DNA of 32,000 nt from Candidatus Saccharimonadota bacterium (lineage in GTDB: Bacteria; Patescibacteriota; Gracilibacteria; BD1-5; UBA6164). The stretch covers positions 1,350,001-1,382,000 of the forward strand of contig OZ245768.1 in assembly GCA_965227835.1 (NCBI GenBank), read 5' to 3'. The notes under the pieces are model-generated. The model did not search any database, was not told where the DNA came from, and saw only the letters and a program-made list of their open reading frames with translations. A program made the translations under genes and the position numbers. Below, in pieces: positions 1,317 to 30,162 of the stretch; position 1 is the first letter of the stretch; each line of letters opens with the position of its first letter.

Positions 1317-1325
1317 CTCAATATA

Positions 1326-4293: not shown

Positions 4294-4375
4294 ATATTAG
4301 ACACAAAACTTTTATTTCCAAAGGTTTTCTTTAATCTATAGCTTGAAGTTTACAAAACTAAAAAAAGGTTGATGA

Positions 4376-4432: not shown

Positions 4433-4694
4433 GGAGGAAATTTAGAGTTTTAGTTTTTTTAATCTTTAAAACCAAAAATAATCTCAGTTATATTTAGCGA
4501 TAATTAACTCAAAACTAAACTTATTCAGAAATATATGGATTTTTCAAAAAACCTTCTTGCTTTTTGTTAAATTAATTTTAATATAAAAAAGTAAAAAATT
4601 TATAAACTTTGAATTTAAAAATTCATTCTTCTTTGTTGCAAAATTAATTTTTTGCTTTAGATTACAAAAAATATTATTTTAATCAAACTAAAAA

Positions 4695-6644
4695 ATGCAT
4701 ACAAAATACCAAGCAAATGCAAGAAAAATAAAAATAGCTATATTTTTCATCCTGTGCACTTTATTATTTAGCTCCTGTGTTAAAACCAAAGAGGAAGTTG
4801 AACAAATCTCAGAAAAACAAGATTTTTTTATACAAACAAAAAAGCTATCTTCTTTTACATGAAGCTATGAAATCAAAAAAACAGGAAAAATAAAACCAAG
4901 CCAAGAAATAATACTAACATCAAAAGTTTCTGGTAGAGTGTGAAGTATAAATTCAGACTTTTGACAAAATGTATATGCAGGACAAAATCTAGTTAATTTA
5001 GTAGATAATGTTTCAAATTATGGATTAAACTTAGAAAAATCTTCACTATCTCTTGAAAGCTCCAAACTTAGCTATGACCAAAATAAAATAAGTTTGGACA
5101 AACAAGTAGAAGATGCTGAGATAGCCTTAGCTAGAGAAAAAAAAGATCATGAAATATTAGAAAAGAAAATAAAAGAAGATATAGAACTAGCAAAAATAAA
5201 TTTAGATAATTCTCTTTCTTGAAATAATGATTCAGTATGATTCACATCAAAAGCTCAATTAGACTATGAAAATTTATTAAAAAGCAACCAAGAACAAATA
5301 AAGACTTTTGAATCTACCTCAAAAAATGATTATCTATCACTAAAAAACTCATTTGTAGATGTAATAGATTTTTCTGATGGAATACTTTGAATTACAAATT
5401 TAAATAAAAGTAGAAACGATAGCTTCGAAGATTATCTATGAGTAAAAGATTCTATTTTCTTAAAAGAAACAGAAAGAGAATTTATAGATCTTATGAAATT
5501 CAAAGAAGATACCTTTGATTCTATATGAAAAGATGATTTAAACATAGAAAATCTAGACTCTTTTTTCAATGTGGCAATTCAATCCTACACCAAAATAATA
5601 GCCTTTCTAGACTCTTTAGAGAAAGTGCTTGATAACTCTGTTGAAAATATTTACTTTACTAGAACAGAAATAGATAGCTATAAAACACAAACAAATTCCT
5701 ATCAAACAGAACTTCAATCAAAATACAATTCTCTTTTGTCTTTTAGATCAAGTGTTAGAGAATTTTTAAATACATATAGTGATGAAGAAGAAATACTTAG
5801 AAAAAGTTTAGAAATATCAGGAGATACTGCTAGAGTTAGTTACAATAAAACTGTGCTTGATTGACAAAAATCTATAAACGATAGTCTTTTATCATTAAAA
5901 ACTGCTGAACTTAATTTACAAAATGCAGAAAAAAATAGGGAAGTTGTCTTAAAACAACTTCAAAACTCTATAGACCTAGCAGAAAATTCTAGATCACTAT
6001 CATATAAAGAATATCAAAAACTATCAATATCTTCTCCTATAAATTGAGTTGTATCCGATATATTAGTTGATATTTGAGAAGATGTTACTCTTTGAACCCC
6101 ATTAATTAAGTTATCATCTCTTTGAACTAATGAGCTCGAAGTTTGATTTAGTTTCTCTGAAGTTGATTATATAAAACCATGAGATATAGTAAAAGTTGAT
6201 TATTTATGAAGTACTTTGAGCTGAACTATTAACTCTATTTCAAAAATAGCTGATGAAAATCTAAATTATAAATCAAGAATTAGTGTAGATTCTCCTGTAA
6301 GTATTTCTTGAAATATAGTTGATGTTTTTGTCCCAATAACCCTATCTAAAAGGTTGATAGAGCTAAAAGATGTCAAAGTTAAATCAAATTGACTTTGAGA
6401 AGTAAATGTACTTTGAGCATATTCTTCTTCAGATAATGAAAAACAAAGCCTAAATGTAGAAAAAGTATTATTAGAACTTTGAACATTTTATTGAGAAAAG
6501 GTAGAAATACTATCTTGTATAGATTTAAATGATGAAATTTGTTCTGATTTAGAAATAGTAATAAGTGATTTATCTAGGTTTGATGAAACTAAATTTAGTC
6601 TAAAGATGAAAAACAGTCCATTGGATGATAATTTGGAAAACTAA
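4695..6644 (+). CDS. Efflux membrane-fusion/periplasmic-adaptor protein (HlyD family), probable lipoprotein; table 25
   Basis: No TAA/TAG over 649 codons when TGA is sense (checked by hand); track ORF 5571..5864 is an in-frame fragment. The N-terminus AIFFILCTLLFSSC is lipobox-like. Two lipoyl half-motifs (ILTSKVSGRVGSI...AGQNLVNL and ISSPINGVVSDILVDIGEDVTLGTPLIKL) flank a long coiled coil. Confidence 0.75.
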
Positions 6645-15898: not shown

Positions 15899-18193
15899 AT
15901 GTTTACTACTACAAAACTTATTAAACAATCATTTATTTATAGTATAAAAAATGATTTAGAATGAGGAGGTCAACTCATAACTGATGCTAATGATAATAAT
16001 ATAGTTACACCTGAAGAATTGCAAAAACTGGAAGATAGAATAAGAGGTTTAGAGTGAGAAAATGAACAATTAATTAAAGAAATAGAATCTATTAAAAATA
16101 TTTTTTGAGAAAACGGTATTAATCTAAATAATCCTACAAACAGAGAATATTTTGAAAAACTAGAATCAGACTATCAAGATGCTTTTCTTGCTATAAGAGA
16201 TAAATATTTTATTAAAAGAACAGAGGCAACTTGAAATACATCTACAGAACAAAGAGAATTTTATGAGGAACTTAGAAATCCTTTCTCAAGAAATATAAAT
16301 CTGCAAAATCCTCCTCTTGAATGAGAAGATATAAATTATCTTCTTAGATACCTAAACTCTAAATGATACAATACTTGATCTTTAAATTGATTTTGAGAAC
16401 AAGCTAAAAGTGCTCTATCTGAATTTCAAACTGATAATATGTGGGATATAAAAGATCAAGAACTTGTTGCTTGAAATGGATTAGGTGAAATGGATTTTGA
16501 TAGTAAAACTATGAAGTACATAGTTAAAGATATAAATGAAAATGGTTTTAACTATGAATCTGCTATAGAATATGGTATTGAAGCAAGTGAAGTACTTGCT
16601 AGCTTAAAAGGTCTAGATTCTTTCTTGTTAAGTTTAAGCGATGCTTACGGTTTACCAAGAGGTAAAACAGATCATACTAGTTATCGTATTATGAAATCTA
16701 ATCTAAGGAGAAGTTTTCCAGGTATAAGTAATGAAGATATGGTTAAAGCAATAAGATTAATAGATAGTTGAAAGCCATCAGCTTGATCAGCTTGACCTAA
16801 AGTGAATAAAATAGTTGAAATAATAAACTGAATGCCTTGAAATGTAAAACAAATGATGAAAGATATGTATATGTCTGAGTACACCACAGCTGAATGAATT
16901 AAAACTATTTTGGATGTACTAAATAATCCAAATATGGATACAGCAAATCTAAGAAGATTTACACACGAAGTTTACAGTTCAGGGGTTTTTTCCAGTATGC
17001 CAGATAGTGTAAAAGACTTAATAAAAGACTTCCAAAATTCACAAACTACTGAAGAAGCTAAAAATATAGTTAGTAAGATATATAAGATATCTTTAGAAGA
17101 GTATAGAGAAATAGAATCTGAAAATGCTCGTCATGAGTTATGAGAAGAAGAAATAAGAGAAGGTTATATTTGATATGCTTTATCAAATATTAATAAAAAA
17201 GACCCTAAAGAGAATATTTGAACTATAACTGATTGAAATAATAAATCTTACAATATAGTATTGGGTCGCTCAATATGAGGAACAGCCTATCTTGAAATAG
17301 CTTGATTTAAATGATTTAATCCAAAGGTAGATATTATGGAAGTTGATTCTTTAAGATCAAAAAGTCCTGAAGAACAAGAGAGGTTGGTTCGTGAATGAAT
17401 ATCTAAAATAAGAACTTCTCAATATGAAAAAAGAGAGGAAGAAATATCTAAATATAGAGAAGCACTTGCTTCTATTTGAGAAATAGCAAGTAGGTATGTA
17501 AATCTAGATGCGAAGTTTGATCAAATTAAAGGTAGTAACTTTGATTTACAATGAACTATAAATAGAGAAAGAGCTATAGATAAAGAAATATCTAGTAACG
17601 ATCAATTCGACGCAAATTCTTTATCTCAATTAGATAGTTCTCAGATAAATTCTTTGCAAGGAAGCTACTGACCAGAAATAGATATGGATAAACTTTGAGA
17701 TAAAACCTATATGCAAAACTATCTTGAAAAAATGTCTAGTGAAACTATAAATTGACACTCTTCTATTTTAGCTGGTGTTATAAGAGGTATAGAACAGCAT
17801 TACGGTATTACTTTTTCTGTTACTAAGTTCAAAAAAGCTTTCTTAAAAGCTTCTGCAGTAGAACAAGGAGAAATGCCTATGGTTTTAAGTACTACTTCTA
17901 AAAACGAAAACCAACAATTTGAATGAGAAATATGAGAAGGAGCTAGTTTATTCAAAATTAATATAAACTGAACAGATGTTTATTTCAGAGATAAACTCAC
18001 AAGTATAGTTACCAAAGTTAATGATATTCCTACCACAGTTAGTACAACTAGTTTACCTAATAGTGCATTTCCTAATGCTTATCCTTCAGGTTGAAATTGA
18101 GATTGAGATTGAGGATGATCATCTAGTAGCTGACCTGGTGGTAGTGCTTGAGTTGAATCAGGTTCATGATCATGAACATGATGAGATAAATAA
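15899..18193 (+). CDS. Large (764 aa) hypothetical protein with a peptidoglycan-binding-like motif and a Gly/Ser-rich C-terminal tail; table 25
   Basis: All codons were walked with no TAA/TAG; track ORFs 16490..16771 and 16910..17143 are in-frame fragments. GEDINYLLRYLNSKGYNTGSLNGFGEQAKSALSEFQ resembles the PG_binding_1 pattern (G.dV..LQ..L...GY...DG.FG..T..AV..FQ). The tail is GGNGDGDGGGSSSSGPGGSAGVESGSGSGTGG. No obvious signal peptide. Confidence 0.65.
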
Positions 18194-18222
18194 AACTTTC
18201 TTATATCATAATAAAAATAGAA

Positions 18223-18441
18223 ATGAAAAAAATTTTAATTGTTATTCTACTTTTATTGCTACTTTGCCTTGCGTCAATTGCATATATTTTCAAAGATAAA
18301 ATTTTTTTTAATTACAGTGAAAAAAACAACAGGGTAATTACAGAAGATTTAGAAACAAAAGAAAATATTAAAGTAGAATCAGTAAAAAATATAGAGCCTG
18401 TTTTATCTTGAGCAAGGCCTTGAATTTGATGATCAAAATAA
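18223..18441 (+). CDS. Small membrane-anchored hypothetical protein; table 25
   Basis: MKKILIVILLLLLLCLASIAYIF is a TM or signal anchor. The track ORF 18223..18411 reads through four TGA to TAA 18439-18441. Confidence 0.45.
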
Positions 18442-18469
18442 GATTTTGTTAAAATTTAAAACAAAAAAC

Positions 18470-18496
18470 TTGACAAATTTATTATATTTGTATAAT
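18470..18496 (+). promoter_or_regulatory. Candidate promoter (TTGACA-N15-TGTATAAT, extended -10) for the 691-aa secreted protein gene
   Basis: Consensus hexamers were read directly, 37 nt upstream of ATG 18533. Confidence 0.4.
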
Positions 18497-18532
18497 CTTA
18501 CTTATAAATTTATTATATAAGCAAATTAAAAA

Positions 18533-20608
18533 ATGAGAAAAATAATTTTAGTCTTATTTGCCTTTCTTTTAAGTACTTGATATTCATATTCTTATAGCCC
18601 CTGAGAAACTTTTTATCATTTTTATAACATAAAAAATAATTTTTCTTGTGGTATGGATATAACAAGGGTTAAAAAATGTTATGATGTAGAGAATGTATCT
18701 CCAGCTTGAGCTTCAGTTTTTAGTGAAGTATGGTTGAGATGAAGCTCTGTTACAAGTAGTGAAAATGAATATTGTTATGAATATGATCCCGATTATATAG
18801 TTCCAGCAGGAACCACAGACTCATGATGGGACATAACATTTTTTACAAATAGCAGTATAGATTCAGCAACAGTAAATTCTAGTTTTGAGTTCTCATTTAG
18901 TATAGATTGAAATTGTACAGATGATGGAAGTATAACAACTTCATTTTTTAAATCTACACTTATATCAGGTTGAGGATGAGATACATATAGGTGTAATGAT
19001 ATAGAAGTTTCTTGAAATACTGTAAAATGTATATGAAACTCCAAAGCACTATCTTTTTGACTTATATGTGATACTACCGAAACTGACCAAGCTTCAGATA
19101 TAGAACAATTCAAAGGTTTCTCTGTTGATTCAGATAACAATAACTATGCTAGTTTTGAATGTGATACTATAAACAAACCTATTTGTTATGTTTATCATTC
19201 CAATGCTACAAGTTATCAATGACAAGCTTGGAGGACAAGTCCTGCTTGTCAGTGGAGTGATGGTAGTTGTTGAAATTGAGTTATAGAGTGATGAGAGCAG
19301 TGTGAAAGAGCTGTAGATTCGGCTTGAAGATTATGAAGTTTTCCAGATTCTTGTAATCAAAATACCTGTCAAATGGATCTGACTACATACTCAAACGAAG
19401 GAGATATAGAATTTGGATGAGTTTATGATATGGTTATTTGACACAATGATAATCTATCTGAACTAAATAATCAGGTATATATGGTTAATAATTCAGATTA
19501 TACATTTAGTAATGATCTATTCAATGAAATATGTGTTACAGAAGCATGAGTATACAATTCTGATTGAACAGAGAGATTTGTAAACACTTGAGACAGTATA
19601 ACTACTCTTTGATCAACTAAATGTTCAGGTTTAAGTAGTCATTTTTATCCAGAGCAAAAAGTATTTTTAGATAAAACTTTCAATGATATAATTGCTGATA
19701 AAGATAAGGTTGATGGAGATGATTATGAAGATAATAATTTAGTTGTTACCATAAAAACAAATAGTAATGTTTCTCCTTATTCTCAAATACTAAATTGGTC
19801 AGATCATCTTACTTCTAAGTTTAGAGTTAGAGTTGCAAAACCAGCTGTGCAAACTACGGGGGCTACTAGCTTTACAAAAACTTGAGTTTCCTCTGATTCA
19901 AACAAAATAGCTGAAGAATGAGGAATAAATTTAGAATGATGAGAATCTAATGATTTAAAAAACAATAATGATGTATGAGTAGGTACAAAATCGAGTTCTT
20001 TTGAAAATACTGTTTCTACTACAAATACTTGAATTATAGAAGAAGCAGAAGAATATAGTGTTGATTCTTCTGATGTAATATACAATGATGTAATACCTGA
20101 TTCTATAGATGTAGATAGTTTATCTGATATAACAGATAATTATAATTGACTCCCAAATGTATTTATTATAAAAAATGCAGATGTAAGTTTATGAGAAACA
20201 AACCTAGATTTAGATGAATCAACTACATATATCATTGACTGATGAGATTTAAATATTAGCTGAAACATATATTCCAATCAAAATATAGCTTTTGTTTTGA
20301 GAAGTGGATGAGATATAAATATATGACAAGACGTTACCGAGATAGCTTGAACTTATATAGTTATACCTGATTCTATGGGGAATTGAAAAATTAACTGAGA
20401 AGAATCTGATAATCAGCTTTTGGTAAAATGATCTTTGTATTGAGATCTTTCCGATTTAATAGATAATAGATATAAGGTTACTGAAAACAACTGAGAATTA
20501 AGTTTTGGTACTGTGGTAAGCTTTTGATCAAAGGTTTTTCAAAAACCAGCTCCAATGGTAACTAGCTTTATAAATACTTATCTTAGTAGTTCAAAAGTAG
20601 CAAATTAA
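18533..20608 (+). CDS. Large (691 aa) Cys-rich secreted hypothetical protein; table 25
   Basis: All codons were walked, with TAA at 20606-20608. Signal peptide MRKIILVLFAFLLSTGYSYS. There are many Cys, and one CGNGVIEGGEQCE segment resembles the CGNG..E.GE.CD cysteine-rich repeat known from Myxococcales-type surface proteins. The C-terminal third has repetitive strand-like periodicity. Confidence 0.65.
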
Positions 20609-20636
20609 ATATAAATTAAAGATTGTAATTGTATTG

Positions 20637-20671
20637 AAAACTTCTAGCCTTAAAAAGCTAGAAGTTTTTTT
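20637..20671 (+). terminator. Rho-independent terminator after the Cys-rich protein gene
   Basis: AAAACTTCTAGC / GCTAGAAGTTTT stem with an 8-nt loop and a T-run. Confidence 0.7.
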
Positions 20672-21010
20672 AGTTTGTAATTTTTTGTTTGGGTTTTAGC
20701 TGAAAAGTTAGAGTTCCTTTGAAATATATCTCCTTTTAATTTTTAGTTTTTTACAAAATCTTTTCAAAAAGATTTGATATAAGTTCTAAAAATACTATCA
20801 TCTCTGAATTATTTTTTCATATTTTTTAAATTGTTCTTTAAAATTTAAAGTAAGATTAAATATTGCGAGTTAAAAGTTTGTCATATTTTGCCTTGAAATA
20901 TAGATATTTTTTTATTGGTAGATTTTTGCCTCGTAATATTTTTCAACCAAATACTGATTTTTTGCGAGGGAAAATTAGTATAAATAAACCTAAATAAAGG
21001 AGGTTAAAAA

Positions 21011-23266
21011 ATGTTTAAACGAATTATTCTTACTTTGTTTATCATTTTACCATTATCATTTGGTATATCTTCTTGTTCTGTTGAAGAAGATGAGGAAGAC
21101 TTAATTAGTCTCAATGATGATAATGGAGACGACGGTTCTGGAGACGATGGCTCTGGGGACGACGGTTCTGGAGACGATGGCTCTGGGGACGACGGTTCTG
21201 GAGACGATGGCTCTGGAGACGATGGCTCTGGGGACGACGGTTCTGGAGACGATGGCTCTGGGGACGACGGTTCTGGAGACGATGGCTCTGGGGACGACGG
21301 TTCTGGAGACGACGGTTCTGGAGACGACACTAGTGATTCTCCAAAAACCGTTCCTACCATTGAAGTTACCGTTCATGAAAACTACATCAGTGATACAATA
21401 GTTAGTCCTAGCTATAGTCTTACACCAAGTCAGTATAATATTGTTAATCCTATTTTTAGTCCTTCTAATGAAAATTCTTCTGATGAAAGTGACTCTGATT
21501 GGGATAATCTATCTACTAACTATAACTTAGCTGTAGATGGATATAATGACCTAGGAGAAGCAATATATGGTGAAGCTGACTATACTGAGGAGTTACCCTT
21601 AGACTGGGATTCAGATAAAACATATGACTTACCTGGAAATAAGGTTTTGTACTCCGACGATGAAGGCAGAATAGGTACATTTGCTAATAAATGGTGGGCA
21701 TCAGGTTACGATGAGCCTTCTTTTTCTCCAAACTATGGTCCATGGGAGATCATAGCTAGAATTGATGAAGAAGGTAACACTCTATCTGTAAAAGATGTAG
21801 TTGAATACTGGGATGTTGAAATTCCTTACTCTGGTGGAGATATCGCTTGGCATAATATTGTAGGTTTAGATTATTGTTTTGAGGCTAAATACTGGACTCA
21901 AGGTAATGAACCTATTCTTACAGGAGGTGAAGGTCAACCTAATTCTTGGGAGAGCCCATGGCAATCAAGTGACCTTTGCAATAGTGATGAACCAGCTATC
22001 AGTAATGATGATACTGGGGGAGGTAAATCAGAAATAGAAACTCTTCCACCTATGGAAGATCCTGATGATGGTTTACCTGACAATACTCCAGTTGTTCCAC
22101 CTGTTACACCTGTTCCAGATGAAGAACCAGAGGAAGAACCAGTAGAACCTGAACCCGTAGAAGTAGCTGAAGAAACTGGATTACCAGAAGATGGTTATGA
22201 GTTTCTAAGGACAGTTACTTCGGCTCATTGGGATTATCTTTTTCCTTTGCGTTCTGGAAGGTATAATGAAGAAGGCTCAACTAGGAATCAGCCCCCAATA
22301 GCCCTAGAAGATGGTTCAACCGATGTCTTTTCCCTTGATAACTTTAAAAAAGCTGTTTTGGAGTACAATGCTTATGCTTTAGCTAATGGCTTTAAGCAGT
22401 TCCTAAATGAAGGAACTCTAAAACAACAAGGGCAAGAGTTTTTGGTTTTTTGGGCTAAATCTGCTAGAGAAACTTCAGGTTCTTGGACTGATGCTCCATA
22501 CCCATGGATTACCACCTATACAAATAATCTTTCAGAAACTACAAGTCTCTGGACAGGTGCTTTGTACTGGGTTGAAGAAGTGGGTTTTACCACAAATGAA
22601 GATGGAACTAGTGATGCTATAGGTTATGTCGATCATGGATCATCTTATACTCCAGTAGAGGGTCGTTCTTATTATGGTCGAGGAATAATTCAGCTTTCCT
22701 GGAACTATAACTATGGAGCATTTTCTGCTTGGTTGTATGATAATGGTCTTATGACAGATATAATAACTTCAAGGGATACTCTTCTTTATAGACCTGACTA
22801 TGTTGCCACCAATGGTGCTTTATCGATACTGTCAGGAATATGGTTTTGGATGACTCCTCAAGGAGCAAAACCATCTTCTCATGATGTTCTTTATGGTGAT
22901 GTTTATAATGTTTCCCAAACTACTCAGGAACAGGGTCTACCTCAAAGAAATGATGGAGACTCTATACCTGTGGAAGAAGGAGATACTGTAGACGAATCTG
23001 TGATGGCATATCGTATTGGTACTGTCATAAACATAGTCAATGGTGGACTTGAATGTAACAAAGCTGCAAGTTGGCATGGAGGACCACCGCAGCGAATCTC
23101 TTACTACAATGCTTATACCATGTATTTCAATGATCAAATAAATGGTTTAAATGCAACTAGAGTGAGTGAAGCGACAGATATCTGGAACGAAAAAGTTTCG
23201 GATTCTAGTCACGACAACATAAAAATGGCAACTTGCTGGAGCCAAAAATCTTATTATGGTTGGTAA
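21011..23266 (+). CDS. Lipoprotein glycoside hydrolase family 19 (chitinase/lysozyme-like) with an acidic GDDGS repeat linker and putative CBM5/12-like modules
   Basis: Standard-code ORF of 751 aa with no in-frame TGA and a TAA stop. AAGGAGG sits 7 nt upstream. Lipobox-like LSFGISS|C. The GH19 catalytic core shows SARETSGSW, YYGRGIIQLSWNYNYGAFS and SGIWFWMTPQ. Aromatic-rich segments (NKWWASGYDEP...GPWE; AKYWTQGNEP...SPWQ) are chitin-binding-like, and a Pro/Glu linker lies at ~22060-22180. Confidence 0.88.
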   Translation: MFKRIILTLFIILPLSFGISSCSVEEDEEDLISLNDDNGDDGSGDDGSGDDGSGDDGSGDDGSGDDGSGDDGSGDDGSGDDGSGDDGSGDDGSGDDGSGDDGSGDDTSDSPKTVPTIEVTVHENYISDTIVSPSYSLTPSQYNIVNPIFSPSNENSSDESDSDWDNLSTNYNLAVDGYNDLGEAIYGEADYTEELPLDWDSDKTYDLPGNKVLYSDDEGRIGTFANKWWASGYDEPSFSPNYGPWEIIARIDEEGNTLSVKDVVEYWDVEIPYSGGDIAWHNIVGLDYCFEAKYWTQGNEPILTGGEGQPNSWESPWQSSDLCNSDEPAISNDDTGGGKSEIETLPPMEDPDDGLPDNTPVVPPVTPVPDEEPEEEPVEPEPVEVAEETGLPEDGYEFLRTVTSAHWDYLFPLRSGRYNEEGSTRNQPPIALEDGSTDVFSLDNFKKAVLEYNAYALANGFKQFLNEGTLKQQGQEFLVFWAKSARETSGSWTDAPYPWITTYTNNLSETTSLWTGALYWVEEVGFTTNEDGTSDAIGYVDHGSSYTPVEGRSYYGRGIIQLSWNYNYGAFSAWLYDNGLMTDIITSRDTLLYRPDYVATNGALSILSGIWFWMTPQGAKPSSHDVLYGDVYNVSQTTQEQGLPQRNDGDSIPVEEGDTVDESVMAYRIGTVINIVNGGLECNKAASWHGGPPQRISYYNAYTMYFNDQINGLNATRVSEATDIWNEKVSDSSHDNIKMATCWSQKSYYGW
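21125..21334 (+). repeat. Tandem 15-bp coding repeat: 13 GDDGS units plus one degenerate GDDTS unit, with a 30-bp higher-order unit
   Basis: The units GGAGACGATGGCTCT and GGGGACGACGGTTCT alternate. Phase was verified against the CDS frame. Confidence 0.95.
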
Positions 23267-23294
23267 GTGAAAATTTTTGTGTAATTTATAAACC

Positions 23295-23329
23295 AAAGAG
23301 GCTATCTATCACTAGATAGCCTCTTTTTT
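23295..23329 (+). terminator. Strong rho-independent terminator after the GH19 gene
   Basis: 14-bp perfect stem AAAGAGGCTATCTA / TAGATAGCCTCTTT with a 4-nt loop and a T-run. Confidence 0.85.
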
Positions 23330-23381
23330 AATTTTGATTTATTTAGGAAATTATAGTTAATATATGGAATATTTGTCTTCA

Positions 23382-24797
23382 TTAATCATAAATTAAATTT
23401 AATTTTTTATTTAAGCTTTTGGCAGAATGTTTTATAGCAGCATTTCAATTAATTAAACTTCTATAAAGAGATAATACCTGAGCCGTAATAGTACTTGGAT
23501 ATAAAATACTCTCTCAATTTTTATTTACATCATTAGCGAAAAAAGGTTGAATATCGTTTTCTTGAAATAAATCCTTATCAGATTTTAAAATGGATTCATA
23601 TTCTGATAAATTCTTTACAACAGGGAATCATGGGATTTTTGACCATCATTTATCTACATAGTTACTAAACCTATTTCATAATAAAACTTCTGATTCTATA
23701 TTTTTTCACTCTTGTTTAGAAAAATAATCAAATACTATTTTTGAATATATGGTAGTTTTTCCTGATCATTGAGTATCAAAGAATGTGACTTTTGGCATAT
23801 TACTTTTAAAAACTCAAGTCCTTTTCATCTGCATATAATATTCTTTTGATTGCTTATAAAATTTTCTATGTTTTCATCATTTTTTTCAAGCTTCTAAAAT
23901 TTTAAAACTCTCTTTTTGTACTGATGAGATAAATAATTCAAATATCTTTTCATCGCTTTTTGATGAATATTCAGGAGATAATTTTTTATTTAAGCTATCA
24001 GGGGCCCTCATCCCTTCATGCCAATAATCAAATATTCTTAATTTTATATCTTCGTCATCTACTAAAAACTTATTTGTTACTCATTCTAATATATCTGCAA
24101 AAATTTTATTTTTAAGAGTTTCTTTTTTATACATAACTCTCAATCCTCAATGATAAATTAGTCAGCATCTTTTAGGTTGATTTGTAACCTGAGATATATA
24201 TGTATCTGCCTCAAATATTGGTCATGAATCTCTTGCGATGTAGAAAACAAAATTCTTTTTTTTATGTAGCTGATTTATAAATTGATAATAAGAATAAGCC
24301 AACTGGTTTAATCTTTTAGGATCTATTACAAGCAAATATGGAGGAGGTATACTATTGCTATTTATGATATTCTTGATATCTCATTTTACTTTTCAAGTAA
24401 TTTGTAGAGTTGGATGTTTAACTAATATGTCAATGAGTTTTTCTAGCTTTTCATGTTCTTGAGGTTGAGGTAGATATTTATCTTTAGGATCTGCGACAGG
24501 ATGATTATATAAATGGAAATTAATACTTTTTGCATACTCAATAAAGATCTTTAAAACTTCTCTGATTTCTTCTATATCAAATTCTCTAATTGTATTATCG
24601 CTATTTCTCGGGAATAAATTTAAAGGAATTCATATAAATAATTCTTCTAGATTTTTTATATCTATTGATTCAAGTAAAGAGAATTTACGAGAAAAAAACT
24701 CTTTTAAAGTGTATTTATATTTTTCAGAGAAAATTATGCTTTCATCATAAATTTTATTACATGTATCCATTTTTATACTATTAATTTTATCCCCCAT
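23382..24797 (-). CDS. Hypothetical 471-aa protein of unknown function; table 25
   Basis: The reverse strand was translated codon by codon. It is open from ATG (24797; alternative ATG 24770) to TAA (23384-23382), with about 20 in-frame TGA (TCA on the plus strand). Notable strings are FVFYIARDSGPIFEAD and VTFFDTQGSGKTTIYS. No family assigned with confidence. Confidence 0.6.
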
Positions 24798-25085
24798 ATC
24801 ATGGAGAAAACTAACTTAGGCAGCCACACATTTTTTACAATTAAACCATTTTTTAATATTTTAACATATTTTTTAATATTTTTAAAGAATTTTGTATTAA
24901 TTATGAGATGAAAAATTCACATCTAATAAAAAATAATCTTTTTTGTTAATTATAACTTAAAAATTACTTATCTTTTATTATAATAAATAAACTTCCCCTA
25001 TCATTAAAAAATACATTTTTTTAAAAATTTGATTTTTTTTGATTATTTATTAAGATTTGCCTCCGTTTAATACTGAACTGCATTT

Positions 25086-25313
25086 ATGATAAAAAAGACT
25101 TTATTGAAATACAGTCTATTTTTGTTTTTAAATTTATTGTTTTTTTTATTACTTTTTTATATATTTGAAACAATTTTTAAAACAGGTAGTAAAGCTATAT
25201 TTTTCTTTTTAGTAATTAGTATATTTCCCCTTATTTTCTTTACCTATATATTAATTACGAAAAATTTAAAAGAACTAAATAAGCTATGAAAGAATCCTTT
25301 AAATGAGAAATAA
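25086..25313 (+). CDS. Small two-TM membrane protein in the atpI/atpZ position; table 25
   Basis: The track ORF 25086..25289 reads through one TGA to TAA 25311-25313. It is hydrophobic and lies immediately upstream of atpB. Confidence 0.45.
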
Positions 25314-25319
25314 TAAATA

Positions 25320-26126
25320 ATGGCAACAGATTATACTAACCAAGAAAATATTATACATTCCTGACCTCATATTCCTACTATACAAGGAGAACAGATAGCC
25401 TATGGTATCTCAAATACAGTAGTAACTACATTTTTGTTTGCTATTATGGTTTTAATAATAGTTTTTTTTGCGAATAAAGTTCTTAACTCATCTAAAAAAT
25501 CTAAACTTAAAACTGGTATTTTAAGTTTTTTCAAATTTTTTGACTGATATTTGAGAGGTGTTTTTTGAGACAAAAAAATAGCAAGAATGTATTTTCCTTT
25601 GGTAGTTTGAATTTTTATAATAGTTTTTTTTGGTAATTTATTTGGTTTAGCTATAGACTGGTTTTGAACTTCTGTTTCTGAATCTATACTACACTATATA
25701 AGACCAATGCACAGTGATTTAAATACTACACTTGTCTTGGCACTTATAACTGTTGTATCTTTTTTGACCGTTTGAATAAAAACACACTGAACTAAAGGAG
25801 TTTTAAAATGATATTTTTTTAATTTTTCTTGAGAAAATATATGAGCTAAACTGGTAAATGTTTTTGTGTGATGGTTACATCTTATAGGTGTTCCTGCTAC
25901 TTTGGCATCATTATCTCTTAGGCTTTTTTGAAATATATTTGCTTGAATAGTTTTGATATCTGTTATTACATATTTATGAGCTTGGATGACTAGCTGATTT
26001 TTTGAAGTATGAAGATTTCTATCTATACCTTTTTGGTTTTTTGAATTCTTTGTCGCATTTGTGCAATCTGTTGTTTTTGCGGCACTAATTATTTCTTATA
26101 TAAACCAAGCTAAAGAAACTCACTAA
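25320..26126 (+). CDS. atpB: F0 ATP synthase subunit a; table 25
   Basis: Walked with no TAA/TAG. It carries the conserved LSLRLFGNIFAG motif with both Gly as TGA (25929-25931 and 25944-25946), and the C-terminal FVQSVVFAALIISY. Confidence 0.9.
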
Positions 26127-26197
26127 AATATAGATAGGTGGTTTTAAATTTAGTTTAAGATCAAAATTTATATTTTATTATTTTAATAACAAAAAAT

Positions 26198-26422
26198 ATG
26201 GAATTAAAAGAGTTAGCTATGGCTCTGGCTATAGGTTTGGGAGCAATATGACCTGGTATAGGTATATGATTAATAGGTAAATGAGCTTTAGAAGCTCTTG
26301 GTAGAAATCCAGAAGCCTCTGGAAAAATAAATGCTCTTACTATACTTACTATAGCTTTTGCTGAAGCTGTAGCTATATATGCACTAGTTATAGCATTTAT
26401 TATAGGTTTTGTTGATTTATAA
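26198..26422 (+). CDS. atpE: F0 ATP synthase subunit c; table 25
   Basis: [30 protein letters not shown]...FAEAVAIYALVIAFI is the classic c-subunit hairpin, with the Gly-rich helix partly TGA-encoded. Confidence 0.9.
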
Positions 26423-26459
26423 TAAAAACTTATTACTTACAATTTTTTAACTTACAATC

Positions 26460-26936
26460 ATGGATTTGAAGTTTGTAACCATTGAAACATTTATTATACA
26501 GTTAATTTTGCTTGTTATAATACTTTGGGTTTTAAATAAATTTTTGTTTAAACCTTATTTATCTTATCTTGATAAATGGGAAGAAAGACAAGAAAAATTA
26601 GAAAAAGACTATAAAAATATAGATAAGCTTGTAAAAGATGCTGAAAAAGAAAAAGAAGAAATATTAAAAGATGCTAGAAATAAATCAAACACAATAATCT
26701 CTGAAGCTGAAAATTTAGCTAAATCTAAAAAAGAATCTATTTTATTAAATGCTGAAAACGAGTCTAAGTCTATTATAGAATCAGCTAAAAAGGAAATAGA
26801 GAAAGAAAAATTATCTATGTTGAGCCAAGTTAAAACTTCTCTAACAGACTTAATTTTGAAATTTAACAGAAAACTTTTTGATAAACAAGAACTAAATAGA
26901 GATTTTATAGAACAGCAAATATCTCATATAAAATAA
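26460..26936 (+). CDS. atpF: F0 ATP synthase subunit b
   Basis: Track ORF with an N-terminal TM, a long charged helix and the expected operon position. This gene happens to contain no TGA. Confidence 0.8.
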   Translation: MDLKFVTIETFIIQLILLVIILWVLNKFLFKPYLSYLDKWEERQEKLEKDYKNIDKLVKDAEKEKEEILKDARNKSNTIISEAENLAKSKKESILLNAENESKSIIESAKKEIEKEKLSMLSQVKTSLTDLILKFNRKLFDKQELNRDFIEQQISHIK

Positions 26937-26941
26937 AATTT

Positions 26942-27301
26942 ATGGAAACTAAACTAGAAGGCAGCTTATCTAAACTAAATATCTGACAATTAAAAGAGAT
27001 ACTTAAATCTCTAAGATTATACAAAGATTTATTAGCAAAGTTATGAAATAGAGGTAGAGATTTATTTTTTAGTAAAATCTTTGAAAAAAATATTTATAAA
27101 GTTGAATATTTTGAATCTGTATGAGAAAAAGAAGCTTTAATTGAGGCTTTGAAAGCTTATAATAAAATATTTTGAATATCTCCTTCAAAAGAGGATATTA
27201 TCCTAAAACCAAAAAATTCTTTAGAAGGTTGAATAAGGATACACAAAGATGATTGTATGGCTGATTTGAGTTTTAAAAAATTAGAGAAATTTATTAGATA
27301 G
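26942..27301 (+). CDS. atpH: F1 ATP synthase subunit delta (OSCP), unusually short (119 aa); table 25
   Basis: It sits between atpF and atpA. The C-terminal ...LEGGIRIHKDDCMADLSFKKLEKF resembles the delta C-terminus (GG..i..gd...D.S....L). It is about 60 aa shorter than typical delta subunits. Confidence 0.55.
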
Positions 27302-27606
27302 TAAGCACCTAAAAAGCTGAAAATATCTTTATAAAGTTAAGGGGAAATTAAAGAAACACTTGAAAAAATTTGTTTAAAAGAAAAATAATCCTATTTCAAC
27401 AAATGGCTTTAGCCATTTGCCAAAGCCCATTTTAAACTAGTTTGGAATTAATAGAAATAGTCTTGTTTGAGTAAATAAAATATGATTATAGTCTTTAATG
27501 AAATCCCGAAAAATCAACATCTATGAAGAAATAATCTTTATTTTTATCCAATGAAGTAATTTACTCAGAAATTCCTTAATAATTAATTTAATAACAACAT
27601 TTTCTT

Positions 27607-29112
27607 ATGCCCCATGATATACTAAATTCTATTATAAATGATATAGAACAAAAAATTGACTCTGTAGACCTAAATCCAGAAATAGAGAACTCTTGAGAAG
27701 TATTTTATCTTTGAGATGGTATAGCTAAAGTAACTGGACTTAGAAAAGTTGCCTACAACGAGGTTGTAGAATTTGAATCTTGAGCTAAAGGAATAGCACT
27801 TAATTTAGATGAACATTTTGTATGAGTGGTTGTTTTAGAATGATTTGATACTATAAAAGAATGAGATAGTGTTAAATCAAGCTCTAAGACACTTAGTGTA
27901 CCTGTTTGAAAAGAACTTTTAGGTAGAGTTGTAAATGCTCTTTGAGAATCTATTGACTGACTTGGTGAAATAAAAAGTAAAGAATTTTATCCAGTTGAAA
28001 GAGTTGCTGAATGAGTTATGGCAAGAAAATCTGTGCATGAACCTCTTGAAACTTGAATAAAAGCTATTGATGCTCTTGTTCCCGTGTGAAGATGACAAAG
28101 AGAGTTGATAATATGAGATAGGCAAACAGGTAAAACTCAAGTCGCTATAGATGCTATATTGAATCAAAAATGACAAGGGGTTATGTGTATCTATGTAGCT
28201 ATTGGTCAGAAAGAGTGAAAAATTGCTAGAGTAGTTGAAGAACTTAAAAAATCTTGAGCTATGGATTATACAATAGTTGTTTCAGCCTCTGCAAGCGAAC
28301 CTGCATCTATGCAATATTTATCTGCTTATTCTGGGTGTGCTATGGCTGAATATTTTATGTACAATGGAGGACATAGTTTAATCATATATGATGATTTATC
28401 AAAACAAGCAAATGCTTATAGAGAAATGTCTTTACTTTTGAGAAGACCCCCATGAAGAGAGGCTTATCCTTGAGATGTGTTTTATCTTCATTCTAGGCTT
28501 CTTGAAAGATCAGCTAAACTGAAAGATGAAATGGGAGCGTGATCTATGACTGCTCTACCTATTATAGAAACTCAAGCTTGAGATGTATCTGCCTATATTC
28601 CTACAAATGTTATATCTATTACTGATTGACAGATATTTTTAGATTCAAACTTGTTTAACTCTGGTCAAAGACCGGCCATAGATGTTTGATTATCTGTTTC
28701 AAGGGTTTGATGATCAGCTCAAATTAAAGCCATGAAAAAAGTCTCTTGAACCTTGAAACTAGATTTAGCCCAGTTTAGAGAGCTTGCAGCTTTTTCCCAG
28801 TTTGCATCAGATCTAGACGAATCTACAAAATCTCAACTTGATAGATGAGAAAGGATGATGGCTTTGCTAAAACAATCAATATATTCACCAATTACCGTAG
28901 CAAAACAAGTTTGTAGTATTTATGCATGAAGTAAAGGTTTTCTTGATAGGTTAGAAGTGTCTAGTGTAGCTAAATTTGAGCAAGATTTGAACTCCAAACT
29001 AGATGAAGAAAAAACTATAATAGAAGCTATAGAAAAAAATAAAGTACTTGATGAAGAAAACGAGAAAAAGCTAGTAAAAATAATTGAAAAAATTGTTGAA
29101 CTTAATAAATAA
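27607..29112 (+). CDS. atpA: F1 ATP synthase subunit alpha; table 25
   Basis: [16 protein letters not shown], Walker A GDRQTGKT (first Gly is TGA 28114-28116), [33 protein letters not shown]. Track ORF 28261..28455 is an in-frame fragment. Confidence 0.95.
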
Positions 29113-29124: not shown

Positions 29125-30162
29125 ATGAAAAAAAAAGTATTAATGATTTTTTGCGGGGGAACAATTGCTATGACACCGGACTCTAAAACTGGTGCTTTGA
29201 AACCTGCTAAAACTTCTAATGAACTATTGGAGCTTATTCCTGCAGTGAAAGACCTTGTTGATTTAGATGTTATTGAATTATTTAATACAGATTCAACAGA
29301 AATTAATTACACTCACTGGGTTAAATTAATTAACACAATTCATCAAAAATATAAGCAATATGAATCTTTCGTCATAACACATGGTACTGATACAATGGTT
29401 GATACTGGATGTGCTTTATCCCTTGCTTTTGGTAAAAATTTAACTAAATCAATTGTTATTACATGAAGTCAGAGTCACAGTGAGGCTATTTGAACTGATG
29501 CAAAATTTAATTTAGAAAATGTTTTTAGGGTTGCTATTTGTGATGTTCCTGAAGTTATGATAAGTTTTGGACACTATGTTTTAAGAGCAATTAGAGCACA
29601 AAAAAGACATGAAAGTGATTATAATGCTTTTCATTCTCCGAATTTTTTATATTTAGCAAATATAAGAGCTGAAATACAATGGACACCTGTTGCAAGAAAT
29701 AGTGTTGTACATATAAGTAAACTTAATATTAAAAATGACTTTGAGAATGAAATCTTAACTATCAAAGTAAATGCTGGGCTTAACGAAAAATTAGTTGAAA
29801 ATATCATTGGTCAGGGGTCAATTAAAGGAATAGTTTTTGAAAGTCTCGGTTCTGGAAACGTACCAAGTAAATATTTAAAATCAATTAGGCAAGCAACGAA
29901 AAAGAACATACCTTGTCTAATAGCATCACCATTTACCGGAGGTTCAACACATGCTAAGATTTATGAACTTTGATATGAGGCACTAAAGGCTTGAGCAATT
30001 GAGACATATGATATGACAGCAACAGCAATTTATATAAAGCTTATGTGGTGTTTAGCTCAAATAAATAAAAAAATAAAGGCTGGTGTTTTAAGTAGTGATG
30101 ATTTGATTCCAGTAATAAGAGAAATGTTTAATACAAATTATGTTGGAGAAGTTAGTATTTAA
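29125..30162 (+). CDS. Type I L-asparaginase (AnsA-like); table 25
   Basis: CGGTIAM, ITHGTDTM and VITGSQS motifs. Track ORFs 29125..29466 and 29557..29973 join in one frame through TGA codons. There are only 4 in-frame TGA. Confidence 0.85.

What the first reader, a model, noticed from the sequence alone, without database searches (positions are those of the whole stretch)
20609..23381. GH19 chitinase/lysozyme-like lipoprotein on a second TGA-free, SD-bearing island flanked by native code-25 genes
The 751-codon gene has no TGA among about 80 glycines, a TAA stop, AAGGAGG 7 nt upstream, a spot G+C of about 43% and a 14-bp GC-rich terminator. It sits between two heavily TGA-recoded genes, at 18533-20608 on the plus strand and 23382-24797 on the minus strand. 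That placement makes a chimeric assembly less likely than for island 1. The architecture is a lipobox, 13 GDDGS repeats, two aromatic chitin-binding-like modules, a Pro/Glu linker and a GH19 core (YYGRGIIQLSWNYNYG, WFWMTPQ). GH19 enzymes cleave chitin, and some phage members cleave peptidoglycan. For a putative epibiont or predator, a surface-tethered GH19 acquired from a standard-code donor could be a host- or prey-wall-degrading tool. I saw no integrase, transposase or flanking direct repeats.
Basis: partly seen in the sequence, partly recalled or inferred. Interest (0 to 1): 0.7.

Follow-up and report, generated by a model that had tools for sequence, protein, structure and literature searches.

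The report
Borrowed chitinase gene in a Gracilibacterium
A tiny uncultivated bacterium that reads the stop codon TGA as glycine carries an intact chitin-degrading enzyme gene recently taken from an ordinary-code bacterium; the case is clean and well supported but not a new kind of biology.

Summary
ORF 21011-23266 (+) encodes 751 aa with 81 Gly codons and no TGA. Native genes in the window use TGA for 66% of Gly, so P is about 3e-38. The gene has an AAGGAGG Shine-Dalgarno 7 nt upstream (0 of 18 native genes have one), a TAA stop and a hairpin terminator.

The host is a Candidatus Gracilibacteria genome using code 25. TGA = Gly was checked on AtpA.

This is not an assembly chimera. Two independent strain-level contigs carry the same gene between the same neighbours. 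In one, a native, TGA-rich IS element interrupts it.

A sister-species contig has the upstream gene followed directly by atpB. It lacks both GH19 and the adjacent 471-aa orphan gene.

All relatives are at most 59% identical and sit in standard-code genomes, mainly Gamma- and Betaproteobacteria, some with low G+C. None of 34 related loci shows a code-25 signature.

The architecture is lipobox, 13x GDDGS spacer, two CBM5/12-like modules, a Pro-rich linker and a long-loop GH19 domain. All of it except the repeat is inherited from that family.

The best reading is a horizontally acquired, surface-tethered chitinase. A role in lysing prey walls is possible but less supported. It is a new member of a known kind, of moderate interest.

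The parts
20636..20669 (+). Intrinsic-terminator-like hairpin ending the native upstream gene (18533-20608). It marks the left edge of the variable segment.
   Evidence: 13-pair stem followed by a T-run. The orthologue of the upstream gene in sister contig L085 is followed directly by the atp operon.
20997..21003 (+). Shine-Dalgarno AAGGAGG, 7 nt upstream of the ATG. This is a donor-type translation signal.
   Evidence: Read directly. 0 of 18 native genes have an SD-like motif, while GH19 and 3 of 4 island-1 genes do.
21011..23266 (+). GH19 chitinase gene: 751 aa, TAA stop, 81 Gly codons and no TGA.
   Evidence: Pfam PF00182 scores 86.5 bits, E = 3e-24. The exact protein is on record on a 1,489,121-bp contig.
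21011..21076 (+). Lipoprotein signal peptide. It has an n-region (KR), a hydrophobic core and the lipobox I-S-S-C, with Cys22 as the predicted lipidated residue.
   Evidence: Sequence pattern. A lipobox Cys is present in many homologues, 23 of 96 by regex. A native protein (4695-6644) also has an FSSC lipobox.
21124..21328 (+). 15-bp tandem repeat, 13.7 copies, encoding 13x GDDGS (aa 39-103). It forms an acidic, disordered spacer and is unique to this protein within its family.
   Evidence: TRF on the window, L002 and L003. Absent from all 26 aligned homologues. AF2 pLDDT is below 50 for aa 7-108.
21599..21964 (+). Two aromatic beta-rich modules (aa 197-248 and 265-318), homologous to CBM5/12 chitin-binding modules.
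   Evidence: Module 2 matches PF02839 only weakly (E = 0.037, 14.5 bits). The aligned modules of orthologues P0012 and P0022 pass the cutoff at 30 bits. The AF2 model shows beta strands with pLDDT 71-93.
22037..22195 (+). Pro/Glu-rich disordered linker (aa 343-395), containing the family-conserved TPVVPPV motif.
   Evidence: Alignment A1. pLDDT is below 50 for aa 332-364.
22196..23263 (+). GH19 catalytic domain (aa 396-751) with long loops. Key features are E487 in SARETSGSW, E522/E523 in LYWVEEVG, S563 in QLSWNYNYG, and IWFWMTPQ.
   Evidence: All these residues are invariant in 27 family members. The motifs align to plant class I chitinases at E of about 1e-22. Foldseek top 42 hits are all GH19 chitinases, TMt up to 0.80.
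23295..23326 (+). Hairpin terminator between the convergent GH19 and 471-aa genes.
   Evidence: 14-pair stem with 5 G:C pairs, a 4-nt loop and a T-run.
23382..24797 (-). 471-aa orphan gene with 18 TGA codons and 25% G+C. It lies in the same variable segment as GH19. Its function is unknown.
   Evidence: Absent together with GH19 from sister contig L085. No Pfam, NCBIfam or PHROG hit. The only distant homologue is 34% identical, on a 39% G+C standard-code contig.
20852..25420 (.). Tract that is nearly identical between the window and strain contig L002: 7 differences in 4.5 kb. It spans the GH19 promoter region, GH19, the 471-aa gene and the intergenic region up to atpB.
   Evidence: dS is 0.004-0.006 inside the tract and 0.14-0.19 in the flanking genes. 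The segment absent from L085 maps to about 20.65-25.02 kb.

Best explanation
The gene is an intact family-19 glycoside hydrolase of the chitinase subfamily. It belongs to a clade otherwise found in standard-code Gamma- and Betaproteobacteria and other Gram-negative aquatic bacteria.

A Candidatus Gracilibacteria lineage (code 25, TGA = Gly) acquired it horizontally. This happened after the split from a sister species that has an empty site, and before the sampled strains diverged.

The transfer needed no recoding. Under code 25 all standard sense codons and the TAA/TAG stops keep their meaning, and this gene ends in TAA. It still carries donor traits: a strong Shine-Dalgarno, no TGA glycine codons and GC3 of about 0.23. 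Those traits match a low-G+C standard-code donor, not the host.

Inferred mechanism of the protein:
1. Sec export and lipidation at Cys22 tether it to the outer face of the cell membrane.
2. An acidic disordered spacer of about 85 residues (EEDEED plus 13x GDDGS) projects it through the envelope.
3. Two CBM5/12-like modules bind chitin.
4. The GH19 domain hydrolyses beta-1,4-GlcNAc linkages by the inverting mechanism. E487 acts as general acid, E522 or E523 as general base, and S563 positions the water.
5. The released chito-oligosaccharides can serve as amino-sugar or carbon supply.

What is shown: the gene's identity, foreign origin, contiguity, empty sister site and conserved catalytic motifs. 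What is inferred: expression, lipidation, substrate and physiological role.
For: Code 25 host.
- At least 23 of 28 TGA sites in AtpA align to Gly in solved F1-alpha.
- AtpB homologues are named Candidatus Gracilibacteria.

Foreign signature.
- 0 of 81 Gly codons are TGA, against 66% in native genes.
- An SD is present only on GH19 and island-1 genes.
- GC3 is 0.229-0.248 against 0.150 for native genes. Codon usage correlates at r = 0.97 with island 1 and 0.90 with native genes.

Real contiguity.
- L002 is collinear over 9.7 kb at 96.8% identity.
- L003 has the same context with a 16-TGA IS5-like transposase inserted in the gene.

Empty site.
- In L085 the orthologue of the upstream gene (56% identity) is followed after about 360 bp by the small atpI-like ORF and atpB.

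Relatives.
- The best is 59% identical.
- Named ones are Vibrio, Enterovibrio, Roseateles, Chromatiaceae and Gammaproteobacteria.
- The contexts examined are standard-code genomes with full biosynthetic genes.
- 0 of 34 related loci have a code-25 ORF signature.
- 0 of 113 relatives have W or X at 20 conserved Gly columns.

Chitinase assignment.
- PF00182 at E = 3e-24.
- Plant class I chitinases are the best PDB sequence and structure matches.
- Catalytic residues are invariant.
- CBM5/12 is detected in orthologues.

Selection: dN/dS is 0.2-0.3 between strains.
Against: - There is no expression or activity data.
- Native genes lack an SD, so efficient translation from this start is not assured.
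- One strain has the gene knocked out by an IS, so it is dispensable.
- The window protein's own CBM5/12 score is below the Pfam cutoff.
- The family lacks the loop-3 disulfide cysteines that are conserved in more than 90% of GH19 chitinases (PMC8547705).
- No member of this exact clade is known to me to be characterised.
- Pairwise alignments to solved structures do not span the predicted general-base Glu, because of a loop-2 insertion of about 16 residues. The AF2 confidence is low at aa 522-525.
- Chitin-utilisation genes (nagA/B/K, GH20, transporter) and lgt/lspA could not be looked for outside the 32-kb window.
- NJ bootstraps around the window sequence are low (16-27%), so the donor clade is not resolved.
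Confidence: 0.8

Rival explanations
1. The enzyme is a cell-wall weapon. Tethered on the surface of an epibiotic or predatory Gracilibacterium, it would cleave the peptidoglycan, or another GlcNAc-containing envelope polymer, of the host or prey bacterium rather than environmental chitin.
For: - GH19 includes lysozyme-type endolysins, and the protein matches endolysin PHROGs weakly (best E = 8.5e-8).
- The lipoprotein tether plus long spacer would place the enzyme at a cell-cell interface.
- From my own knowledge, some plant GH19 chitinases also show lysozyme activity, and cultured relatives in this superphylum are predatory epibionts.
Against: - All 42 significant PDB fold matches, and all PDB sequence matches, are chitinases. 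None is an endolysin.
- The accessory modules are CBM5/12-type, not peptidoglycan-binding.
- The whole architecture is inherited from free-living chitin-associated bacteria such as Vibrio and Roseateles.
- There are no relatives in IMG/VR or GenBank phages.
Confidence: 0.12
2. The gene is a recent, effectively neutral passenger. It would be poorly expressed or not expressed in a host that does not use Shine-Dalgarno initiation, and on its way to loss.
For: - The IS-disrupted allele in strain L003 shows the gene is dispensable.
- It shows no amelioration at all: 0 TGA, although GGA to TGA is a single synonymous step and there are 29 GGA codons.
- It lies in a variable segment next to an orphan gene.
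Against: - The ORF is intact at 751 codons in two of three strains.
- Catalytic residues are all conserved.
- dN/dS is 0.2-0.3.
- The N-terminal part in L003 has diverged at the core-genome level (dS 0.127). The gene has therefore persisted since before the strains split.
- It has its own terminator.
Confidence: 0.15
3. Assembly or binning artefact: a fragment of a standard-code bacterium was joined into a Gracilibacteria contig.
For: There is an abrupt change in G+C and codon usage at the gene boundaries.
Against: - Three separately assembled sequences (the window, L002 and L003; 97-98% identical strains) have the same junctions on both sides.
- A transposase gene with 16 in-frame TGA codons sits inside the GH19 gene in L003.
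- The flanking intergenic DNA is host-like and AT-rich.
Confidence: 0.01
4. The gene is an ancestral Gracilibacteria gene that avoids TGA for a functional reason, with loss in the sister lineage.
For: None specific. In principle the empty site in L085 could reflect loss.
Against: - No CPR or code-25 relative was found in a 5.8-billion-protein search, in GTDB species representatives or in JGI metagenomes.
- Highly conserved native genes such as the ATP synthase genes use TGA freely.
- The gene has a donor-type SD.
- Its codon usage matches low-G+C standard-code genomes and island 1.
Confidence: 0.02

Closest known systems
Uncharacterised 'glycoside hydrolase family 19 protein' or 'chitodextrinase' clade of Vibrio, Enterovibrio, Roseateles/Mitsuaria, Chromatiaceae and other Gammaproteobacteria (for example the V. 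hippocampi, V. parahaemolyticus and R. aquatilis entries; P0002-P0096)
   Same: - Full-length collinearity over aa 110-751.
- Signal peptide or lipobox, two CBM5/12-type modules, the TPVVPPV linker, and a roughly 360-aa GH19 domain with long loops.
- 98 invariant columns, including the catalytic motifs.
   Different: - Only 42-59% identical.
- The host is a code-25 CPR bacterium.
- The 13x GDDGS acidic spacer is unique to this protein.
- The strongly acidic composition (143 D+E against 32 K+R) was measured only for this protein.
- In this host the gene is foreign.
Proteobacterial GH19 chitinase groups CHIT 6/7 of the GH19 Engineering Database (PMC8547705)
   Same: - A bacterial lineage derived from 'loopful' plant-type chitinases, with lengthened loops 2 and 3.
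- Here there are about 23 residues between W499 and E522, and 26 residues between EEVGF and SYYGRG.
- Mostly Proteobacteria.
   Different: - I could not assign the protein to a numbered group.
- The characterised CHIT 6 enzymes (V. proteolyticus, P. tunicata) belong to the ChitVjs-type clade, which has a different domain order.
Vibrio/Aeromonas GH19 chitinases of the ChitVjs / VproChi / V. cholerae ChiA2 type (PMC12943478)
   Same: - GH19 catalytic domain retaining loops II-V.
- Two ChtBD3/CBM5/12 modules and a low-complexity linker.
- Marine and acidic.
- Experimentally shown to be endo-chitinases or chitosanases.
   Different: - The domain order is reversed: catalytic domain at the N-terminus, CBMs at the C-terminus.
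- About 570 aa long.
- Only about 31% identity over about 30% of the query to the apparent representative P0101, an Enterovibrio chitinase.
Plant class I/II GH19 chitinases (PDB 4MST, 3CQL, 4TX7, 4J0L, 2BAA)
   Same: - Best sequence matches (E of about 1e-22) and fold matches (TMt 0.73-0.80).
- Shared motifs HETTGG/RETSGS, YYGRGPIQLSWNYNYG, WFWMTPQ and NGGLEC.
   Different: - About 25% identity.
- This protein has large loop insertions, no CBM18 hevein domain and no loop-3 disulfide (V540/P548 in place of Cys).
GH19 phage endolysins (the ELYS subfamily, for example Salmonella phage SPN1S, PDB 4OK7)
   Same: The same GH19 fold family. PHROG endolysin matches are weak, with the best at E = 8.5e-8.
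   Different: - No peptidoglycan-binding bundle.
- No phage context.
- Not among the significant fold hits.
- No relatives in viral collections.
TGA-avoiding ('code-neutral') phages predicted to infect both code-25 CPR and standard-code bacteria (Liu et al. 2023, PMC10746230)
   Same: The same principle applies: sequence without in-frame TGA and with TAA/TAG stops is readable under both codes. That allows genetic exchange across the code boundary.
   Different: This is a chromosomal cellular gene, not a phage. No vector was identified.

Membership tests
Glycoside hydrolase family 19 (Pfam PF00182) | Profile match above the curated gathering score | tested here: met
   86.5 bits against a cutoff of 25.5, E = 3.2e-24, aa 449-632.
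Glycoside hydrolase family 19 | General-acid Glu in the [H/R]-E-T-[T/S]-G-[G/S]-W motif | tested here: met
   E487 in SARETSGSW aligns to SHETTGGW of plant chitinases. It is invariant in 27 family members.
Glycoside hydrolase family 19 | General-base Glu about 22 residues downstream of the acid (plant Y-C-F-K-E-E) | tested here: inconclusive
   E522/E523 in LYWVEEVG are invariant in the family. A loop-2 insertion of about 16 residues means pairwise alignments to solved structures do not span this site. AF2 pLDDT is below 50 at aa 522-525. The equivalence is inferred.
Glycoside hydrolase family 19 | Ser/Thr that positions the nucleophilic water, in the YYGRGPIQLSWNYNYG signature | tested here: met
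   SYYGRGIIQLSWNYNYG at aa 553-569. S563 is invariant.
GH19 chitinase subfamily (as opposed to the endolysin subfamily) | Nearest characterised or solved relatives are chitinases, and the protein carries chitin-binding accessory modules | tested here: met
   All PDB sequence hits, and all 42 significant fold hits, are chitinases. Orthologues carry PF02839 above cutoff. PHROG endolysin matches are weak.
GH19 chitinase subfamily (GH19ED signature) | Loop-3 disulfide, Cys97-Cys105 in rye numbering, conserved in more than 90% of chitinases (PMC8547705) | tested here: not met
   In the alignment to 4MST the two Cys, which lie 8 residues apart before YYGRG, correspond to V540 and P548. Both residues are near-invariant in this clade. 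The position mapping is my inference from the spacing.
CBM5/12 chitin-binding module (PF02839) | Profile match above the gathering score | tested here: inconclusive
   The window protein scores 14.5 bits (E = 0.037) against a cutoff of 26.2, for aa 271-321. The homologous modules of P0012 and P0022 score 30.1 and 30.6 bits. The AF2 model shows small beta modules.
Bacterial lipoprotein | Signal peptide ending in the lipobox [LVI][ASTVI][GAS]C | tested here: met
   MFKRIILTLFIILPLSFGISS-C22. The feature is shared by many homologues.
Bacterial lipoprotein | Host encodes Lgt and LspA, and the protein is lipidated | not testable with these tools
One native protein in the window also has a lipobox, which is indirect support.
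Horizontally transferred gene | Composition and codon usage atypical for the host | tested here: met
   0 of 81 TGA-Gly against 66% native. GC3 is 0.23-0.25 against 0.15. An SD is present against 0 of 18 native genes.
Horizontally transferred gene | Phylogenetic incongruence: nearest relatives lie in unrelated taxa | tested here: met
   All relatives are in standard-code, mostly proteobacterial genomes. None is in a code-25 locus. The exact donor is unresolved because bootstraps are low.
Horizontally transferred gene | Absence at the syntenic site in a related lineage | tested here: met
   L085 has the upstream-gene orthologue, then the atpI-like ORF, then atpB, with about 360 bp in between.
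Integrative mobile element / genomic island | Integrase or transposase, a tRNA target, or flanking direct repeats | tested here: not met
   No such gene lies in 20.6-25.3 kb. There is no shared repeat of 13 nt or more between the two flanking intergenic regions.
Prophage lysis module | Phage structural or holin neighbours, or relatives in viral genomes | tested here: not met
   The neighbours are an orphan gene and the atp operon. There are no relatives in IMG/VR, and no phage-genome relative in GenBank phage records: the only hit is a 26%-identity match to a Salmonella chromosomal record.

The most novel reading that the evidence does not exclude
The two unameliorated, SD-bearing, TGA-free islands in this window are GH19 and the TelA/ABC-transporter island at 99-4293. 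Their codon usage is almost identical (r = 0.97, GC3 0.23) and matches low-G+C standard-code Gram-negative genomes that carry close GH19 relatives.

Both islands could therefore come from one donor population: the physical host or prey of this epibiotic Gracilibacterium. In that case TGA-free islands would act as a built-in, datable record pointing to the unknown host. The surface-tethered GH19 would keep the epibiont on the same chitin particles as its chitinolytic host, or would act on that host's envelope.
Probability: 0.15. Interest if true: 0.65.

Novelty: new member of a known kind. Interest (0 to 1): 0.38.

Why it matters
This is an unusually clean example of gene flow across a genetic-code boundary. 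A standard-code gene works unchanged under code 25, and the total absence of TGA glycine codons serves as a marker of recency.

- **A layered record of acquisitions.** The window holds GH19 and island 1 at 0% TGA-Gly, an asparaginase inside the atp operon at 19%, and native genes at 66%. This suggests that TGA fraction could be used to stratify acquisitions genome-wide in Gracilibacteria and Absconditabacteria.
- **A new capacity for a reduced genome.** The gene gives a metabolically reduced CPR bacterium a polymer-degrading, surface-exposed enzyme, which bears on how such organisms feed or attach.
- **Easy to test.** With no TGA, the gene can be expressed directly in E. coli, so its substrate (chitin or peptidoglycan) can be determined readily.

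None of this overturns current understanding.

Tried and rejected
**Look-ups and scans that found nothing**
- Exact-protein contig look-ups returned no record for P0001 and for the island-1 ATPase.
- The genome-contig scan did not return the window's own genome, so the source organism's record name is unknown.
- A viral-contig scan and the GenBank phage search found no relatives.
- An exact 38-nt junction pattern was absent from JGI metagenomes.
- NCBIfam gave no hit for GH19 or for either flanking gene.
- Island-1 proteins found only generic ABC-ATPase similarity in the GH19-bearing loci, so there is no shared-donor evidence from synteny.

**Analyses that were inconclusive or blocked**
- The NJ tree of 110 GH19 domains has bootstraps of 16-27% around the window sequence, so the donor cannot be named beyond 'mostly Gammaproteobacteria-type clade'.
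Its function stays unknown.
- The promoter scan is uninformative in this AT-rich DNA: 28 hits against 23 expected.

**Readings rejected**
- Assembly chimera.
- Vertical inheritance with TGA avoidance.
- Prophage endolysin.
- Integrase- or tRNA-associated island.

The reasons are given under the rival explanations and the membership tests.

Full report
**1. The observation**

Reading the window with only TAA and TAG as stops gives long ORFs with 5-53 in-frame TGA codons each. There are two exceptions: four genes at 99-4293, and one at 21011-23266.

That TGA means glycine was checked on AtpA (27607-29112). With TGA masked as X, at least 23 of the 28 masked sites align to Gly in solved F1-alpha subunits, including GDRQTGKT, RRPPGREAYPGD and SRVGG. 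AtpB homologues at 55-72% identity are labelled Candidatus Gracilibacteria.

The GH19 ORF details are as follows.
- It has 751 codons, an ATG start and a TAA stop.
- Its 81 Gly codons are all GGN. The 18 native genes use TGA for 299 of 456 Gly codons, so P(0 TGA) is about 3e-38, or 3e-25 without the repeat.
- AAGGAGG lies 7 nt before the ATG. No native gene has an SD-like motif, but GH19 and three of the four island-1 genes do.
- The terminator hairpin at 23295-23326 is real, but only 5 of its 14 pairs are G:C.
- G+C is 40.5% for the gene. The 43% figure applies only to the repeat-containing bin.
- The lipobox, 13 GDDGS units (15-bp repeat, 13.7 copies), two aromatic modules, the Pro/Glu linker and the quoted GH19 motifs are all present.

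**2. It is not a chimera**

The exact protein is on record on a 1,489,121-bp contig. Two further contigs come from a different ENA assembly. Both are 97-98% identical strain variants and carry the gene in the same context.
- L002 is collinear with window 18127-27852.
- L003 has the same neighbours, but the gene is split by an insertion of about 1.2 kb. The insertion encodes a DDE_Tnp_1/DUF772 transposase with 16 in-frame TGA codons and has 11-16-nt terminal inverted repeats.

A native code-25 IS sitting inside the TGA-free gene is strong evidence that the gene resides in this organism. No strain has a TGA within GH19-derived sequence.

**3. Presence and absence**

L085 is a 24.7% G+C code-25 contig from a hydrothermal-vent metagenome. 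Its AtpA is 84% identical and its AtpB 78% identical to the window's.
- L085 has the orthologue of the upstream 691-aa gene (56% identity). About 360 bp later come a small atpI-like ORF and then atpB.
- Its intergenic DNA aligns to window positions from about 25020 onward.
- The segment present only in the window lineage is therefore about 20.65-25.02 kb. It contains GH19 and the convergent 471-aa gene.

The 471-aa gene is TGA-rich (18 of 22 Gly) and an orphan.
- It has no family hit.
- Its one distant homologue is 34% identical and sits on a 39% G+C standard-code contig.

There is no integrase, no tRNA and no flanking repeat of 13 nt or more.

**4. Population history**

Between the window and L002, positions 20852-25420 differ at 7 sites. 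Inside this tract dS is 0.006 for GH19 and 0.004 for the 471-aa gene. In the flanking genes dS is 0.14-0.19.

Other low-divergence tracts occur nearby, so the strains are mosaic and the block was homogenised by recent recombination. In L003 the N-terminal part of GH19 has dS 0.127, which is the core-genome level. The gene was therefore already present when the strains diverged. Where dN/dS can be measured it is 0.2-0.3.

**5. Where it came from**

A search of 5.8 billion proteins gave 108 hits. The best non-self hit is 59% identical. Named hits are Vibrio, Roseateles/Mitsuaria, Dactylopiibacterium, Bacterioplanoides, Rhizobacter and Gammaproteobacteria.

GTDB species representatives add Chromatiaceae, Enterovibrio, Neisseriaceae, Pseudomonadales and Sulfurovum. 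One relative sits on a 374-kb Vibrio maritimus plasmid.

In an NJ tree of 110 domains the window protein falls among environmental sequences. A Chromatiaceae MAG and a Gammaproteobacteria MAG are the only named members there, and bootstraps are low.

The contexts of the closest relatives are all standard-code genomes with ordinary biosynthetic genes and some TGA stops:
- L001, 43% G+C
- L088, 31.6% G+C
- L089, 32% G+C
- L091, 41% G+C
- L092, low G+C

Two systematic checks agree with this.
- Reading TGA as sense raises long-ORF coverage by 0.37-0.78 in the four Gracilibacteria loci. In 32 of 34 loci carrying family relatives the rise is at most 0.10. The other two are short contigs with about 47-50% G+C.
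- No relative has W or X at 20 conserved Gly columns.

GC3 comparisons:

| Gene set | GC3 |
|---|---|
| GH19 in the window | 0.229-0.248 |
| GH19 orthologues | 0.21-0.23 |
| L088 and L089 background genes | 0.23 |
| Island 1 | 0.225 |
| Native genes in the window | 0.150 |

Codon usage of GH19 correlates at r = 0.97 with island 1 and at r = 0.90 with native genes. A low-G+C standard-code donor therefore explains the composition without any amelioration. Much of the 40% overall G+C is due to amino-acid content.

In L001 the GH19 gene is itself compositionally foreign (GC3 0.23 against a background of 0.49). This clade seems to move between hosts.

**6. What the protein is**

- Pfam PF00182 matches at E = 3e-24.
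- The best PDB sequence matches are plant class I chitinases at E of about 1e-22.
- An AF2 model (mean pLDDT 71) has a confident GH19 domain at aa 380-750 and disordered aa 1-108 and 332-364.
- All 42 significant Foldseek PDB hits are GH19 chitinases. Plant loopful enzymes come first and no endolysin appears.
- E487 (SARETSGSW), E522/E523 (YWVEE) and S563 are invariant in 27 family members.

The general-base assignment is inferred. A loop-2 insertion of about 16 residues keeps pairwise alignments from spanning it.

The long loops 2 and 3 fit the proteobacterial CHIT 6/7 groups of the GH19 Engineering Database. The loop-3 disulfide typical of chitinases is missing (PMC8547705).

Module 2 matches CBM5/12 only weakly (E = 0.037). 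The aligned modules of orthologues pass the Pfam cutoff.

Apart from the GDDGS array, which no homologue has, the whole architecture including the lipobox Cys is inherited from the donor family. The characterised Vibrio GH19 chitinases of the ChitVjs type have the reverse domain order and are distant (PMC12943478).

**7. How it most likely works**

Shown:
- an intact foreign GH19 chitinase-type gene with conserved catalytic motifs;
- a lipoprotein signal;
- chitin-binding-type modules;
- stable residence in a code-25 genome.

Inferred:
- export and lipidation at Cys22;
- projection by the acidic disordered spacer;
- binding of chitin through the CBM-like modules;
- inverting hydrolysis of chitin that yields chito-oligosaccharides for uptake.

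The transfer needed no recoding, because only TGA differs between the codes and the gene ends in TAA. The same logic was proposed for TGA-avoiding phages of these lineages (PMC10746230).

The rivals are a prey-wall lysin (about 0.12), a poorly expressed passenger gene (about 0.15), an artefact (about 0.01) and vertical inheritance (about 0.02).

**8. Verdict**

The suggested prey-wall function remains speculative and is the less supported option.

This is a new member of a known enzyme family, in an unusual host, acquired by a known process. Interest is moderate. The main value lies in the clean cross-code HGT signature and the ease of experimental follow-up.

Noticed in passing
window 99-4293 (+): 'Island 1' holds four genes: TelA-like, an NMT1-like substrate-binding protein, an ABC permease and an ABC ATPase. 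They have 0 TGA among 90 Gly codons, G+C of 33-38% and AGGAG-type SD on three of the four. Codon usage is almost identical to GH19 (r = 0.97, GC3 0.225). The ATPase and permease proteins are on record on the same 1.49-Mb contig. The island reaches the window start, so it may extend further.
   Followed up: partly
window 29125-30162 (+): An L-asparaginase gene (PF00710/PF17763) sits between atpA and atpG inside the ATP synthase operon. In the related contig L084, atpA is followed directly by atpG. Only 4 of its 21 Gly codons are TGA (19% against 66% native), although its GC3 is native-like (0.16). It looks like an older, partly ameliorated acquisition.
   Followed up: partly
L003 about 4085-5290 (corresponds to window about 21575-21650): An IS5-like insertion sequence interrupts GH19 just upstream of the first CBM-like module in one strain. 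Its 321-aa DDE_Tnp_1/DUF772 transposase has 16 in-frame TGA codons. The terminal inverted repeats are GAGCCTGTTGC/GCAACAGGCTC. This is an active code-25 IS.
   Followed up: yes
window 23382-24797 (-): A 471-aa orphan protein co-varies with GH19: it is absent from L085 and lies in the same near-identical tract in L002. It has no Pfam, NCBIfam or PHROG hit. Its single distant homologue (34% identity) is on a 39% G+C standard-code contig. Conserved motifs include LIYHGGLRV, FxDTxGxGKT and ENDIQPFFA.
   Followed up: partly
whole window, 25 nt upstream of each of the 18 native genes: Native genes have no Shine-Dalgarno-like motif at all; their upstream regions are A/T-only. This Gracilibacterium apparently does not rely on SD-led initiation, which raises the question of how SD-bearing foreign genes are translated.
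   Followed up: partly
window 18127-27852 compared with L002, and 17535-25471 compared with L003: Divergence between strains is mosaic. Tracts with 0-2 differences per 200 bp alternate with tracts of 20-50 per 200 bp. This indicates frequent homologous recombination in the population.
   Followed up: partly
L001 10001-12022: The closest homologue (P0002, 59% identity) is itself compositionally foreign in its 43% G+C genome: GC3 is 0.23 against a background of 0.49. A DDE transposase lies about 3 kb downstream. This GH19 clade appears to be mobile among hosts.
   Followed up: partly
window 25086-25289 (+): A small hydrophobic 67-aa ORF lies immediately upstream of atpB. It is conserved in L085 (45% identity) and L084, and is probably an AtpI/AtpZ-like protein. 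It marks the right-hand limit of the variable segment.
   Followed up: yes
window 15899-18193 and 18533-20608 (+): Two large native proteins (764 and 691 aa) lie upstream of the island. They have no significant family hits: only a sub-threshold bZIP_1 match for the 764-aa protein, and no hit for the 691-aa protein. The 691-aa protein has an N-terminal hydrophobic leader and is Cys-rich; its L085 orthologue is only 56% identical. They are probably fast-evolving surface proteins.
   Followed up: no
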